In this document: in pieces, positions 29,967 to 32,955 of the stretch
How the letters are laid out: the number at the start of each line of letters is the position of its first letter
Position numbering within the stretch: the first letter of the stretch is position 1
DNA from: a virus
Taxonomy: Duplodnaviria; Heunggongvirae; Uroviricota; Caudoviricetes
IMG/VR virus record: IMGVR_UViG_2585427777_000002
Location: 1 to 37,339 of that record
Strand: one strand, 5' to 3'
Length of the DNA: 37,339 bases
Program-made: the position numbers and the translations under genes
Notes under the pieces: model-generated
The model's input: only the letters and a program-made list of their open reading frames with translations
Databases searched by the model: none
Told to the model about the DNA's origin: nothing

Positions 29967-30011
29967 TAAAAACCACATAAGACACGAAATCAATAGAGTT
30001 TAGAATATTTT

Positions 30012-30028
30012 ATTACCTAATAGGTAAT
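30012..30028. promoter_or_regulatory. operator-like palindrome ATTACCTAATAGGTAAT
   Basis: Perfect TTACC-N5-GGTAA, 62 bp from the 29950 site. Confidence 0.6.
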
Positions 30029-30064
30029 TATCAAGACGTAAAAAAATGCGCTATCGCGCTGGTA

Positions 30065-30841
30065 TTACTTGATAAATCCTGCCGCCTTTCCCCGCCTGTA
30101 TTCCTCCATCAGCCACTGCGCCGGTGTTATTCCCCCCAGGGTAGCGGCGTTAGGCATACACCCGAAACTTCGCCCTGGTGGATGGTAAACGTCTCTCCCT
30201 GTGTCCGGAGGCGTACTCATGGGTTCTGGCTTTGCCTGTATGCTGATCACCGGATCGGGTATCTGCTGTCCGGAAGCCACCTTTTTCGCCCAATCATCAA
30301 GCAGCCTGCGCGCATGTTTCTCAACCTCAATCTCGCTAAGCTGGCGCTGATACATTGCACGGCGGGTATCACATACGACCCAGTACATAACCGGATGCCG
30401 CCACGGGAATCTTTCGGGACCACCAGGATATAAACTTTTTTCCTTGCTGTACCGGTGAAACTCCGCCATCACATCGTCAATGGTGACGCCAAGAACCATC
30501 TTGCTGTCTTTACACCACTTGATAAATTGCCCTGGCGACGGCCAGAACGGAGATTCACTGGCGCGGGCGTGGCGCATACCAGCGTTAACCTGTTCCATTG
30601 TAGTGATCCCATTCTCCAGAAACGCAAGCATCCATTGCTTACGGAATTCATTAAGTTTGTTCTGCTCCCTTATGGTCGAAACGCTTGCAGGAAATGCAGC
30701 CTGTAACTGGACAAATAGTTCATTGAAAATTCTAGCGACCTGCTCCTTTTTGCCATTGCTGTCACGCCGCTCTTCATGCACAGCAACACCATGCTCACGT
30801 AAGCGATCGTACTCATTGAGAAGTTCTGGAGTTGATTTCAT
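30065..30841 (-). CDS. lambda P-like replication protein (helicase loader)
   Basis: Extended match to lambda P as recalled: AFLENGITTMEQVNAGMRHARASESPFWPSPGQFIKWC versus AFRENGITTMEQVNAGMRVARRQNRPFLPSPGQFVAWC. Confidence 0.85.
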   Translation of the reverse strand: MKSTPELLNEYDRLREHGVAVHEERRDSNGKKEQVARIFNELFVQLQAAFPASVSTIREQNKLNEFRKQWMLAFLENGITTMEQVNAGMRHARASESPFWPSPGQFIKWCKDSKMVLGVTIDDVMAEFHRYSKEKSLYPGGPERFPWRHPVMYWVVCDTRRAMYQRQLSEIEVEKHARRLLDDWAKKVASGQQIPDPVISIQAKPEPMSTPPDTGRDVYHPPGRSFGCMPNAATLGGITPAQWLMEEYRRGKAAGFIK

Positions 30842-31643
30842 CCCACACCCCTTCTATCCAGTCAGTGTTATTCCAGTCAAGCTCATCGCTTTTCCCGACG
30901 TTTTTTGATTTTCCCCTGATATGATTTACGTGCCTGGCGAATTTTTGTTCCCACTGAACCTGCGTGAACACTTTGCCCTCAGCCATCCAGTAATCCCGGA
31001 ATGCAGCAAGTTCAGCAGGTGTAAATTCCGGTTCCGGCAGGGCCGTTCCCCACAGCGCAGCACGCCGTCGAAAATCCGGCGATGGATGCCAGCCATCGGT
31101 CATCGGAAATTTCCCAATAGGTTCACTCAGGCCATCCAGAAATGCAGGTTCTGCCACCTGCAACGGCGTACCGTTCGCTTCACTGGTCGGATCACTCTCG
31201 CGCGCGTGTGCTATGTGTGGGGTTTTATATATATCTTCCTCTTCCTCTTCCTCTGGTAACTCCTTTTGTAACGCTGTTGGCGTTACTTTTTGCGTTACTC
31301 GTTTTCGATGCTCTGCCACTCTTCTATTCGTAAGTGCACGTTTTTTCGATGATTCTCCATTGTGTCGCTCAAAGTTTGGAAGAATTAGTTTGCCGTCATG
31401 ATAAGCAAGCCATCCGACGCTAATGAGGGCGTCAGCAAATCCTGTAATAAAAGCGAGTCTATCAAGTACTCCTTTTGTAACGCTGCCAGCGTTACCGTCT
31501 ATTGTTTGCTGGTCAGCCCATGCCCATATACGAACCAGCTTTCCAAGAACAGCATCTGGATCAATACCCAGAATTTCTGCTATCTGAAAAATTTCAGGTT
31601 TATCAGGAGTGATAACTTCAACCTTAATCCAGCTGCTTGCCAT
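30813..31643 (-). CDS. O-like replication initiation protein (replisome organiser)
   Basis: Directly precedes the P-like gene; AGAGGGG RBS before MASSWIK; acidic EEEEEE linker; iteron-like repeats inside the coding region. Confidence 0.65.
   Translation of the reverse strand: MASSWIKVEVITPDKPEIFQIAEILGIDPDAVLGKLVRIWAWADQQTIDGNAGSVTKGVLDRLAFITGFADALISVGWLAYHDGKLILPNFERHNGESSKKRALTNRRVAEHRKRVTQKVTPTALQKELPEEEEEEDIYKTPHIAHARESDPTSEANGTPLQVAEPAFLDGLSEPIGKFPMTDGWHPSPDFRRRAALWGTALPEPEFTPAELAAFRDYWMAEGKVFTQVQWEQKFARHVNHIRGKSKNVGKSDELDWNNTDWIEGVWDEINSRTSQ
31225..31495. other. putative replication origin inside the O-like gene
   Basis: TTGTAACGCTGTTGGCGTTAC at 31266..31286 and TTGTAACGCTGCCAGCGTTAC at 31476..31496, each preceded by TCCTT; extra GCGTTAC half-site at 31292; AT-rich TTTTATATATAT plus CTTCCT x3 at 31225..31258. 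Confidence 0.45.
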
Positions 31644-31881
31644 AGGTTTCCCCTCTTGCACTCTTTAGTGCACAAGCAAATTCATTACGATGGCGGTTGG
31701 CGCTATTCATTGCACATTCAACACATGTTCCGTTCAGAACATACCTTTCAGAGAGATGGCCGTGACGGCACCGCTTTCCTGTGAAATAGCGATTTAACCC
31801 GGCTTTTGCGGCCTCCATTCTGGTTACTATCTTCAATTTTTCCGCCCCCTTTTTGTTATTGATATTGGCTATTTTGCACAA
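31624..31881 (-). CDS. hypothetical Cys/His-rich (possible zinc-binding) protein, start uncertain
   Basis: ORF contains CRHGH...CVEC; likely start at MEAAKAG (31818); position between the cro-like gene and the replication genes. Confidence 0.4.
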   Translation of the reverse strand: MCKIANINNKKGAEKLKIVTRMEAAKAGLNRYFTGKRCRHGHLSERYVLNGTCVECAMNSANRHRNEFACALKSARGETYGKQLD

Positions 31882-31896
31882 TTGGAAAATTTGATC

Positions 31897-31910
31897 AACC
31901 AGATTTGGTT
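31897..31910. promoter_or_regulatory. palindromic motif AACCAGATTTGGTT (second motif family)
   Basis: Third copy of the AACCA-N4-TGGTT class, adjacent to an imperfect operator at 31914..31931. Confidence 0.45.
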
Positions 31911-31913
31911 TTT

Positions 31914-31931
31914 TATTACCTTTGAGGTACG
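31914..31931. promoter_or_regulatory. imperfect operator-like site ATTACCTTTGAGGTACG
   Basis: Left half-site perfect, right half-site GGTAC. Confidence 0.4.
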
Positions 31932-31985
31932 AATAGATATGAAAAGACCGCCGGATGGCGGTCTACAGAGGGTTGTGGCTGGATA

Positions 31986-32216
31986 TCATGAGTAGAAGAA
32001 GTATGCCAGTTCTGCTTTTGAGCGCAGCCATTGTCTTGTTTTACAGGCTTTAAAAAGCCCATTCATCAATACCTTACCTGGCATTTTGCGCTTACCTGTT
32101 AAGTGAGTCTGGATATAGTGACTCGTCGTTCCGGCTTCCTGTGCGAAGGCTTCACGCTCATCCGGAGTAAGTGCAAGCCAGTGCTTTTTGAAATCGAAAT
32201 GTCCGTTATCGCTCAT
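31986..32216 (-). CDS. Cro-like small HTH regulator
   Basis: 76 aa divergent from the repressor gene; HTH-like TPDEREAFAQEAGTTSHYIQTHLTGKRK. Confidence 0.65.
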   Translation of the reverse strand: MSDNGHFDFKKHWLALTPDEREAFAQEAGTTSHYIQTHLTGKRKMPGKVLMNGLFKACKTRQWLRSKAELAYFFYS

Positions 32217-32251
32217 AGCTATTGCCTGATATTTATTTCAGATAATAAATA

Positions 32252-32316
32252 TTCACCCATAAGGTAACAAAAATCAAGGATAGTTACCTATGAGGTGCAT
32301 TTACCTGTTGGGTAAT
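32252..32316. promoter_or_regulatory. tripartite operator region between the cro-like and repressor genes (OR-like)
   Basis: Three sites: TTCACCCATAAGGTAAC (32252..32268, imperfect), GTTACCTATGAGGTGCA (32283..32299, imperfect), TTTACCTGTTGGGTAAT (32300..32316, perfect). Confidence 0.65.
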
Positions 32317-32370
32317 ATTGCTTTAAATTGAATCATCTACTGATTCATATATGAGGCGATTTTCCAGAAA

Positions 32371-32955
32371 ATGAAAAGTATCCAGGACGTCCGCAGGCAA
32401 AATCTCAACGACTTGATCGACCGTGAATTCAATGGTGTTCAGACGCGGATGGCAGAAAAACTTGGAACTCAGGCAAATCTGGTAAACCGCTGGGCTCTTG
32501 GCAAGAAGGTTATCGGCGACCAGGTTGCACGAAAAATTGAAGCTGCCGCCAATAAACCCCGTAACTGGCTTGATATTGATCGCTCGCTTTCTCAGGAGGG
32601 TTTTCAGCCTGTCGGCCCGAGCGATATAGGTCAGCTGGCGGCTCACAACCTGGAACGCTGGATGAGCGAAAGCCGCGACCTTTCAACGCAGGGAAAACTA
32701 CACCGCGCATCCGGCGTCGCCCAGGTGACAATCAGCCGCCTGTTAAACAATGAAGTCAGCGTTTCCATTTCCACCCTGGAGAATGTTGCATCCGCATTCG
32801 GGCGTCACGGCTATGAATTACTGATTCACCCGCACGACCCTGCGACTATCAACTATGATCGCTCGCGCTACGCATTGTTACCTGAAACAGAGAAGGCAAA
32901 GATCGAAAGTTACATTGAATTTGTCATCAACCAGAACGAAAAAAGAAAACAATAA
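32371..32955 (+). CDS. prophage repressor with two tandem XRE-type HTH domains and no peptidase domain
   Basis: 194 aa; two Cro/C1-type HTH-like segments (TRMAEKLGTQANLVNRWALGKK and LHRASGVAQVTISRLLNNEVSVS); no S24 Ala-Gly or Ser/Lys motifs seen; divergent from the cro-like gene. Confidence 0.7.
   Translation: MKSIQDVRRQNLNDLIDREFNGVQTRMAEKLGTQANLVNRWALGKKVIGDQVARKIEAAANKPRNWLDIDRSLSQEGFQPVGPSDIGQLAAHNLERWMSESRDLSTQGKLHRASGVAQVTISRLLNNEVSVSISTLENVASAFGRHGYELLIHPHDPATINYDRSRYALLPETEKAKIESYIEFVINQNEKRKQ

What the first reader, a model, noticed from the sequence alone, without database searches (positions are those of the whole stretch)
31225..31496. Iteron-like palindromes and AT-rich tract inside the O-like gene: candidate origin
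Two 21-bp repeats TTGTAACGCTG-N3-GCGTTAC about 210 bp apart, an extra half-site and an AT-rich run with CTTCCT x3 lie inside the O-like coding sequence, as the lambda origin lies inside O.
Basis: partly seen in the sequence, partly recalled or inferred. Interest (0 to 1): 0.4.

Follow-up and report, generated by a model that had tools for sequence, protein, structure and literature searches.

The report
Replication origin inside phage initiator gene
The repeats are real and are almost certainly the binding sites and melting region of a phage replication origin embedded in its own initiator gene, as in lambda, but built on an unnamed initiator family whose DNA sites are conserved almost unchanged across several bacterial phyla.

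Summary
Observation confirmed; interpretation supported by comparative evidence, but not tested by experiment.

- **The gene.** The minus-strand gene 30813..31643 encodes a phage replication initiator. It has an N-domain with no Pfam family and a DnaT-like C-domain. A lambda-P-type helicase loader gene follows it.
- **The sites.** Inside the gene lie a distal palindrome GTAACGC-N5-GCGTTAC (31477-31495) and a proximal array of four half-sites at 12-bp spacing (31256-31298). Next to the array are a 21-nt purine-only tract (31234-31254) and the least stable 13-mer of the region (31223-31235).
- **Conservation.** The same layout recurs in about 90 non-redundant relatives from Enterobacterales, Pseudomonas, Burkholderiales, Planctomycetota and Verrucomicrobiota.
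- **DNA-level selection.** Synonymous codons are frozen at the sites. The proximal site is read in two reading frames. The purine tract has a period of 5 or 6 nt.
- **Link to the initiator.** Arm changes are one-sided, so this is not a hairpin. One lineage changed all eight half-sites together. Allelic phages with another N-domain (phiV10, K-12 Rac) carry different repeats at the same place.

Best reading: a lambda-like origin of a new architectural variant. No phage record or paper I could search describes it.

The parts
30813..31643 (-). Replication initiator gene (276 aa from the ATG at 31643). N-domain residues about 1-120 with no Pfam family, disordered linker about 120-178, DnaT-like ssDNA-binding C-domain 179-247.
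31477..31495 (.). Distal palindrome (site 1), GTAACGCTGCCAGCGTTAC. It encodes the loop GNAGSVT of the N-domain. Proposed auxiliary initiator-binding site.
   Evidence: Found at gene nt ~149 in 87 of 89 non-redundant relatives. Synonymous codons are frozen: GGT 85/88, AAC 85/86, AGC 74/74, GTT 84/87. Absent in L063 and L073, which keep the proximal array.
31256..31298 (.). Proximal array of four half-sites at 12-bp spacing. On the plus strand: GTAACTC 31256-62, GTAACGC 31268-74, GCGTTAC 31280-86, GCGTTAC 31292-98. The central pair is the palindrome 31268-31286. Proposed core initiator-binding sites.
   Evidence: The '>><<' pattern is the commonest in the family (24 loci). Adjacent spacing is 11-12 bp, or 23 bp. 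Exact half-sites occur at 12.55/kb in gene nt 100-450 against 0.141/kb in flanks.
31234..31254 (-). 21-nt purine-only tract on the coding strand, AGAGGAAGAGGAAGAGGAAGA, which encodes EEEEEE. Proposed part of the unwinding region.
   Evidence: Family-wide, the 30 nt after the last half-site are 78-91% purine and 15-27 points below locus GC. The repeat unit is GAGGAA in enterics and GAGAA elsewhere. Codons are frozen: GAA 71/71, GAG 52/58. Lambda has an 18-nt purine run in the same relative position.
31223..31235 (.). AT 13-mer TTTTATATATATC. Proposed first point of melting.
   Evidence: Least stable 13-mer in 30001-32400; only 0.06% of all 13-mers in the window are less stable. Short TATA/ATAWA runs follow the purine tract in most relatives.
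30065..30841 (-). Lambda-P-type helicase loader gene, overlapping the end of the initiator gene.
   Evidence: PF06992, E 1.7e-55. phrog_109 'P-like helicase loader', E 2.3e-89.

Best explanation
The segment 31223-31298, helped by the distal palindrome at 31477-31495, is the vegetative replication origin of this epsilon15/phiV10-like temperate phage. It lies inside the gene for its own initiator.

**Proposed mechanism (inferred by analogy with lambda)**
1. The initiator's N-terminal helical domain recognises the 7-bp half-site GTAACGC (core TAACG). Protomers occupy half-sites spaced about one helical turn apart, arranged convergently (> > < <), and form an O-some-like complex.
2. The distal palindrome about 200 bp upstream adds a further dimer, by looping or wrapping.
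3. Together with transcription entering from the pR-like promoter, the complex melts the adjacent purine-only tract and AT 13-mer.
4. The DnaT-like C-domain and the P-like protein bring in host DnaB.

**Shown here**
- The elements exist and are non-random.
- Selection acts on the DNA rather than on the protein.
- The sites are linked to the N-domain type.
- The gene neighbourhood is that of a replication module.

**Inferred, not shown**
- Protein binding, unwinding and origin activity.
For: 1. **Replication module.** The gene is a phage replication initiator followed by a P-type loader. In relatives, the gene after the same N-domain encodes a P-like protein, a DnaC/IstB-like protein or a DnaB helicase.
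2. **Lambda-like position and order.** The proximal sites, purine tract and AT run lie in the region coding for the disordered linker. They have the same order and polarity as ori-lambda (PMC7466680).
3. **Conservation.** 73 of 80 loci from genome contigs carry both palindromes with at most 2 mismatches. Half-site density is about 89-fold higher than in the flanks.
4. **Constraint on the DNA, not the protein.**
   - Synonymous codons are frozen only at the sites.
   - The proximal site is read in two frames, 66 loci in one and 22 in the other.
   - The purine tract has period 6 (giving EEEEEE) or period 5 (giving EKRREEK).
   - A 4-codon insert in the Rac-type loop is exactly one extra 12-bp half-site unit.
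5. **Not a hairpin.** Arm changes are one-sided: 42 one-sided against 1 compensatory at the distal site, and 63 against 3 at the proximal site. Many half-sites are direct repeats.
6. **Sites track the initiator.**
   - phiV10, about 98% identical in the flanks, has another N-domain and six ATCCC-N6-GGGAT-type repeats in mid-gene instead.
   - K-12 Rac YdaU (DUF1376) carries four CAGATGTTCAA repeats.
   - L071 changed all eight half-sites to GTTGCGC and L085 to GT(T/G)ACGC, with the layout unchanged.
7. **Extra operator-like copy.** Several enteric relatives carry a further palindrome 20-45 nt before the start codon, as expected for an initiator that represses its own gene.
8. **Easily melted DNA.** The AT 13-mer is the least stable in the region.
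Against: - No experiment shows binding, unwinding or replication.
- Only two full palindromes are present, and one lies about 200 bp away inside the part coding for the DNA-binding domain. Lambda has nothing like this.
- The AT run is short, and GC on a 60-nt scale is unremarkable.
- The half-site is almost invariant across phyla, so classical initiator/iteron co-variation inside the family rests on a few lineages (L071, L085).
- The cumulative GC-skew minimum at about 31-33 kb coincides with the switch in transcription direction, so it is not independent evidence.
Confidence: 0.75

Rival explanations
1. The sites bind the initiator but serve only regulation (autorepression, a transcription roadblock or copy control). 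The true origin lies elsewhere.
For: The distal palindrome lies early in the coding region. Some relatives carry an extra palindrome just before the start codon, as an operator would. The distal site is dispensable in L063 and L073.
Against: The proximal array is universal and always abuts a conserved purine-only, low-GC tract and an AT run. An operator has no need of these. No other repeat cluster or DnaA boxes occur in the replication region. The position matches ori-lambda.
Confidence: 0.12
2. The palindromes act as hairpins in RNA or single-stranded DNA, for example a terminator for antisense transcripts, an RNase site or a primosome assembly signal.
For: Each palindrome can form a 7-8 bp stem. 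The consensus scan lists both as terminator-like on the plus strand, and the one at 31268-31286 is followed by TTTTT.
Against: Arm changes are almost all one-sided and break pairing (42 against 1, and 63 against 3). The loop varies freely while the arm sequence, not just the pairing, is conserved. Flanking half-sites are direct repeats that cannot pair. No Rfam family matches. The distal copy has no T run.
Confidence: 0.04
3. The repeats and the GA tract are merely conserved junction sequences (microhomology) at which lambdoid modules recombine. They have no role in replication.
For: Similarity to BUCT554, Klebsiella ST11-OXA245phi3.2 and Rac ends right after the purine/AT tract (query 1220-1235). 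The C-terminal domains downstream differ.
Against: This does not explain frozen synonymous codons at half-sites across phyla, the 11-12 bp periodic arrays, the distal site, or the concerted change of all half-sites in L071. A junction at the end of an origin-plus-N-domain module is exactly what the origin model predicts.
Confidence: 0.04
4. Chance, or a by-product of a repeated protein motif.
For: In most relatives both sites encode N-A-x-S-V-T.
Against: 0.10 palindromes are expected and two are found. In the window the two copies are in different reading frames. Codon choice is fixed at the sites, whereas equally invariant residues elsewhere use all synonymous codons.
Confidence: 0.02

Closest known systems
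ori-lambda within gene O of phage lambda (and the origins of Stx phages, P22, phi80, 82)
   Same: The origin lies in the middle of the initiator gene, in the interdomain linker region. Dyad-symmetric initiator sites are followed, in the direction of transcription, by a purine-only/AT-rich tract. Lambda has four 18-bp iterons and then AAAAGAAAAAAGAAAAGA. The next gene is P. The N-domain and its sites are exchanged together as a module (PMC7466680).
   Different: The N-domain is unrelated in sequence to lambda O. The sites are 7-bp half-sites with an 11-12 bp period in a convergent array, not four tandem 18-bp iterons. There is an extra palindrome about 200 bp upstream inside the N-domain coding part. 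The C-domain is DnaT-like. The half-site is nearly invariant across phyla.
Rac prophage replication region (oriJ; ydaU-ydaV)
   Same: The Rac variant of E. coli 442/2 (MN652886) has the same N-domain, both palindromes and the poly-E tract in ydaU, followed by a DnaC-like gene. Rac is reported to have an active origin, oriJ (PMC3945230).
   Different: The K-12 Rac YdaU has a different N-domain (DUF1376) and different repeats (CAGATGTTCAA x4). The paper on oriJ plasmids (Potrykus et al. 2000) is not held and could not be read.
phiV10 / epsilon15 replication module and DopC-DopE (O-like protein with DnaT_C domain plus P-like protein)
   Same: It sits at the same genome position, with about 98% identical flanks and P-like gene. 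The initiator also has a DnaT-like C-domain. An O-like protein with a DnaT_C domain paired with a P-like protein is described in PMC5509034.
   Different: phiV10 has a different N-domain and six ATCCC-N6-GGGAT-type repeats instead of GTAACGC sites. According to its authors, domesticated DopC has no iterons.
Iteron-type plasmid origins (winged-helix Rep proteins)
   Same: Repeated initiator sites with roughly helical-turn phasing lie next to an easily melted tract. Some relatives have an extra inverted-repeat copy at the initiator's own promoter or ribosome-binding region.

Membership tests
Lambdoid origin embedded in the initiator gene (ori-lambda type) | Lies inside the initiator gene, in the interdomain (linker) coding region | tested here: met
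   The proximal array, purine tract and AT run correspond to residues ~116-140, at the end of the basic helix and in the disordered linker (pLDDT <50). Lambda iterons are at O nt 349-433.
Lambdoid origin embedded in the initiator gene (ori-lambda type) | Several repeated, dyad-symmetric initiator-binding sites | tested here: inconclusive
   Repeats are present, non-random and conserved. Their form differs from lambda's, and protein binding itself cannot be tested here.
Lambdoid origin embedded in the initiator gene (ori-lambda type) | Adjacent AT-rich / purine-asymmetric unwinding tract downstream of the sites | tested here: met
   A 21-nt purine run plus the least stable 13-mer. Family-wide purine and low-GC profile. 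Lambda comparison.
Lambdoid origin embedded in the initiator gene (ori-lambda type) | Initiator gene followed by a helicase-loader or helicase gene | tested here: met
   PF06992 / phrog_109 in the window. P-like, DnaC-like or DnaB genes in relatives.
Lambdoid origin embedded in the initiator gene (ori-lambda type) | Sites and initiator N-domain change together (specificity module) | tested here: met
   phiV10 and K-12 YdaU have other N-domains and other repeats. L071 and L085 show concerted half-site changes.
Lambdoid origin embedded in the initiator gene (ori-lambda type) | Initiator N-domain homologous to lambda O (Pfam Phage_rep_O) | tested here: not met
   No Pfam hit for the N-domain. hhalign against the lambda O N-terminus gives probability 0.3%.
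Lambdoid origin embedded in the initiator gene (ori-lambda type) | Supports initiator- and loader-dependent replication | not testable with these tools
   Needs a plasmid replication assay or marker-frequency analysis.
DUF1376 / K-12 YdaU-type initiators (oriJ) | DUF1376 N-terminal domain | tested here: not met
   K-12 YdaU is annotated as DUF1376. hhalign of the family profile against it gives probability 0.25%. No DUF1376 hit in Pfam scans.
DnaT (primosomal protein I) | Full-length equivalence to DnaT (NCBIfam NF002770 cut-off) | tested here: not met
   93.5 bits against a cut-off of 201. Only the C-terminal ssDNA-binding domain matches. The annotations 'primosomal protein I' in related phages are therefore domain-level only.
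Winged-helix Rep/DnaD-type origin binders | Winged-helix fold of the DNA-binding domain | tested here: inconclusive

The most novel reading that the evidence does not exclude
This may be the first recognised example of a large, unnamed origin-initiator module: about 7,000 clusters at 50% identity, found in at least four phyla. Its origin is bipartite, with a distal palindrome inside the part coding for the DNA-binding domain and a proximal half-site array beside a GA tract. Its DNA requirements are written into the initiator's own sequence: the NAxSVT loop, the ALP motif, and EKRREE or EEEEEE. The near-invariant TAACG core would imply one DNA-recognition code kept across phyla.

A further, more speculative layer: the GA tract could be a single-strand landing pad for the DnaT-like domain or another factor, comparable to DnaA-trios.
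Probability: 0.45. Interest if true: 0.6.

Novelty: new variant of a known kind. Interest (0 to 1): 0.5.

Why it matters
- **Annotation.** If confirmed, this gives a sequence signature for locating the origin in thousands of prophages and phages from Proteobacteria, Planctomycetota and Verrucomicrobiota that currently have no annotated origin: TAACG half-sites at 11-12 bp, then a GA-only tract, then a short AT run. It would also name the role of an initiator N-domain that has no Pfam family.
- **Overlapping codes.** It is a clean natural case of a cis-acting DNA element fixing the codons, and even the amino acids, of the protein thought to bind it.
- **Practical use.** The module occurs in phages of pathogenic E. 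coli (TL-2011b from an EHEC O103:H25 outbreak strain, and O157 phage phiV10). A defined origin could be used for replication-targeted interference or for building phage-derived vectors.

Tried and rejected
- **oriJ literature.** The oriJ plasmid paper (Potrykus et al. 2000, PMID 10964622) is not held. The K-12 annotation shows no origin feature, and K-12 YdaU turned out to have a different N-domain.
- **Sequence homology of the N-domain.** hhalign against K-12 YdaU/DUF1376 and against the lambda O N-terminus found nothing. A Pfam scan of 20 family members found nothing above noise. A PDB sequence search found only the DnaT domain.
- **Fold search.** It gave a strong DnaT match for the C-domain. 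The N-domain gave only weak winged-helix-type matches, so the fold is left as inconclusive.
- **DnaA boxes.** None lie in or next to the element, and there is no enrichment in the window.
- **Rfam.** No hits.
- **GC skew.** The cumulative minimum falls at 31-33 kb but coincides with the divergent transcription switch. I did not use it as evidence.
- **Helical phasing of the distal-proximal distance.** The distances fall in classes about one turn apart (189, 198, 207-209, 219-221, 230-231). Relatedness and 3-nt or 12-nt indel steps confound the test. Suggestive only.
- **Literature searches.** Searches for the half-site sequence with iteron, origin or prophage terms returned only unrelated papers. 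No phage GenBank record annotates an origin here.
- **Link to the immunity operators.** They share GTTACC with the origin half-site. I rejected a link because the operator motif is TTACCT/AGGTAA, and the origin half-sites are conserved in relatives from quite different hosts and phyla.
- **Tool error.** One repeat finder failed because it was given a minus-strand region; it was repeated on the plus strand.

Full report
**1. What is in the sequence**

The window region 31223-31496 lies inside a minus-strand ORF, 30813..31643 (276 aa from the ATG).

- The repeat finder reports one 28-nt direct repeat, 31259-31286 and 31468-31495, 89% identical and 209 nt apart. Each copy contains the 19-bp palindrome GTAACGC-N5-GCGTTAC.
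- Allowing two mismatches, this palindrome occurs twice in the 37-kb window against 0.10 expected.
- The heptamer occurs 14 times against 3.27 expected, five of them within 31268-31495.
- On the plus strand the proximal element is four half-sites at exactly 12-bp spacing: GTAACTC (31256), GTAACGC (31268), GCGTTAC (31280) and GCGTTAC (31292).
- It abuts a 21-nt pyrimidine run, 31234-31254, which is purine-only on the coding strand. TTTTATATATAT follows at 31223-31234.
- That 13-mer is the least stable in 30001-32400 and within the top 0.06% of the whole window. GC on a 60-nt scale is unremarkable, 40-47%.
- The two palindromes are read in different frames: GNAGSVTKG and KVTPTALQK.

**2. What the gene is**

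- The protein matches phrog_2509 'replication initiation protein' over its full length (E 5.9e-129).
- The next gene, 30065..30841, is a lambda-P-type helicase loader (PF06992, E 1.7e-55; phrog_109).
- The N-domain (about 1-120) has no Pfam family. It shows no profile similarity to lambda O or to DUF1376.
- The AF2 model gives a confident helical domain with a beta hairpin (residues 11-90), a basic helix (97-119) and a disordered linker (120-178).
- The proximal array, purine tract and AT run fall at the end of the basic helix and in the linker. The distal palindrome falls in a surface loop (residues 47-56).
- The window is 98-99% identical to Escherichia phages TL-2011b, vB_EcoP_ZX5 and HEMP4. 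These belong to the epsilon15/phiV10 group.
- A pR-like promoter (32270-32242, minus strand) and a terminator (31964-31945, minus strand) lie upstream, so the element is transcribed from the early promoter, as in lambda.

**3. Comparative evidence**

*Size and spread of the family*
- The N-domain family is large: 7,080 clusters at 50% identity with E <= 1e-3, and 4,754 with E <= 1e-10.
- I fetched 80 loci from genome contigs (Enterobacterales, Pseudomonas, Burkholderiales, Planctomycetota, Verrucomicrobiota and others) and 80 from viral contigs.

*Conservation of the sites*
- In 73 of the 80 genome loci the same palindrome, with at most 2 mismatches, sits at gene nt ~149 and again at nt ~335-394. 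The N5 spacer varies freely.
- In 89 non-redundant genes, exact half-sites occur at 12.55/kb in gene nt 100-450 against 0.141/kb in about 445 kb of flanks.

*The constraint is on the DNA*
- In the distal site, Gly is GGT in 85 of 88, Asn is AAC in 85 of 86, Ser is AGC in 74 of 74 and Val is GTT in 84 of 87.
- Equally invariant residues elsewhere use all their codons: D44 is split 47/42, T47 uses four codons, R108 six and V109 four.
- The conserved 'ALP' motif is GCG-TTA-CCn, which is another GCGTTAC half-site; Leu is TTA in 84 of 85.
- The proximal palindrome is read in two different frames across the family, 66 loci in one and 22 in the other.
- The purine tract is (GAGGAA)n in enterics, giving EEEEEE, and (GAGAA)n elsewhere, giving EKRREEK. 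What is shared is a 20-30 nt GA-only run rather than a peptide.
- The 30 nt after the last half-site are 78-91% purine and 15-27 GC points below the locus background.
- The 4-residue insert in the Rac-type loop (GNAECNARGVT) is exactly one extra 12-bp half-site unit.

*Layout*
- Adjacent half-sites are 11-12 bp apart, or 23 bp.
- The commonest pattern is '>><<', as in the window.

**4. Hairpin or protein site?**

- Departures from the consensus in the arms are almost always one-sided and break pairing: 42 against 1 at the distal site and 63 against 3 at the proximal site.
- Many half-sites are direct repeats.
- No Rfam family matches.
- This favours sequence-specific recognition of duplex DNA over an RNA or ssDNA hairpin.

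**5. Link to the initiator**

Three lines of evidence connect the sites to the N-domain.

- **(a) Allelic modules carry other repeats.**
  - phiV10 shares about 98% identical flanks and P-like gene but has another N-domain.
  - It lacks the GTAACGC sites and instead has six 18-24-nt-spaced repeats of the ATCCC-N6-GGGAT type in mid-gene.
  - K-12 Rac YdaU (DUF1376) has four CAGATGTTCAA repeats.
  - A Rac variant from E. coli 442/2 has the window-type N-domain together with both palindromes.
- **(b) Half-sites change together within the family.**
  - L071 (Planctomycetales) has no canonical half-site. It has eight GTTGCGC/GCGCAAC copies in the same two clusters, followed by the same GA tract.
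  - L085 likewise uses GT(T/G)ACGC.
- **(c) An operator-like extra copy.** Several enteric relatives carry an additional palindrome 20-45 nt before the start codon, as expected for an initiator that regulates its own gene.

Two further observations bear on the model.
- The distal site is missing in L063 and L073 while the proximal array and GA tract remain. The proximal cluster is therefore the core and the distal site is auxiliary.
- In relatives, the gene after the initiator encodes a P-like protein, a DnaC/IstB-like protein or a DnaB helicase.

**6. Comparison with what is known**

- Ori-lambda lies in the middle of O: four 18-bp dyad-symmetric iterons, followed about 20 bp later by an 18-nt purine-only, AT-rich run. 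P is the next gene (PMC7466680).
- The window element shares the position, order, polarity and partner gene.
- It differs in four ways: the initiator family, the form of the sites (7-bp half-sites with a one-turn period in a convergent array), the extra distal palindrome inside the N-domain coding region, and the DnaT-like C-domain.
- An O-like protein with a DnaT_C domain paired with a P-like protein has been described (DopC/DopE, with phage relatives). That one has a helix-turn-helix N-domain (HTH_36), and its authors found no iterons in the domesticated copies (PMC5509034).
- Rac has an active origin, oriJ (PMC3945230), but the K-12 version is a different specificity type.
- No phage GenBank record annotates an origin at this site. 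Text searches found no description of it. Subscription literature could not be searched.

**7. Verdict**

The interpretation as a candidate origin is supported by strong comparative evidence but remains untested by experiment.
- I rate it a new variant of a known kind: a lambda-type origin within its initiator gene, with a new initiator family and a bipartite half-site layout.
- Interest is moderate. The principle is textbook. What is new is the cross-phylum invariance of the site, the way it dictates the initiator's own sequence, and the size of the unannotated family.

Noticed in passing
window 31918-31932, 32071-32100, 32262-32320: Repeated TTACCT/AGGTAA motifs lie between the Cro-like gene (31986..32216, minus strand) and the repressor gene (32371..32955). 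Examples are AGGTAAC-N14-GTTACCT at ~32262-32289 and TTACCT-N3-AGGTA at ~31918-31932. They are probably immunity operators. They overlap a pR-like promoter (32270-32242, minus strand).
   Followed up: partly
window 31945-31964 (minus strand): A strong intrinsic-terminator-like hairpin, AGACCGCCATCCGGCGGTCT followed by TTTC, lies between the Cro-like gene and the replication genes. phiV10 annotates a terminator at the same position. This implies read-through or antitermination control of the replication operon.
   Followed up: no
window 31234-31254 compared with L001 (TL-2011b): The GA/poly-Glu tract differs in length between near-identical phages: six Glu in the window and four in TL-2011b, a 6-nt difference. 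It is longer in some viral contigs (L117, L149, L152). The tract behaves like a microsatellite.
   Followed up: partly
L002 (phiV10) 4267-4419: The allelic phiV10 initiator gene carries six lambda-like repeats (ATCCCGTTTTTGGGAT type) and three 12-nt TGGTTATATGAC repeats in mid-gene. These give the peptide repeats PKNGMLND and NQSY. This is probably the unannotated phiV10 origin.
   Followed up: partly
L006 (E. coli K-12 Rac, ydaU) 3472-3578: K-12 ydaU (DUF1376 type) contains four CAGATGTTCAA-type repeats plus an inverted copy (ATGTTCAAACA / TGTTTGAACAT) in its linker region. These are candidate oriJ iterons. RefSeq annotates no origin feature there.
   Followed up: partly
L012, L015, L017, L020, L121, L132, L142 (20-60 nt before the initiator start codon): A subset of enteric relatives carries an extra GTAACGC-N5-GCGTTAC palindrome, sometimes with flanking half-sites, overlapping the 5' UTR or ribosome-binding region of the initiator gene. 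The window has none.
   Followed up: partly
window 31624..31881 (minus strand): A small ORF upstream of the initiator gene (85 aa, Cys/His-rich; phrog_1081, unknown function; weak similarity to an endonuclease VII family) overlaps the initiator start. In relatives L124 and L126 the DNA directly upstream of the initiator start holds half-site-like motifs; I did not check whether it encodes the same small ORF.
   Followed up: no
L004 (Klebsiella phage ST11-OXA245phi3.2) 2640-3410: This relative has the window-type N-domain and sites joined to a YdaU-type C-domain. The record annotates no helicase-loader gene after it; a DUF1064 gene is next.
   Followed up: no
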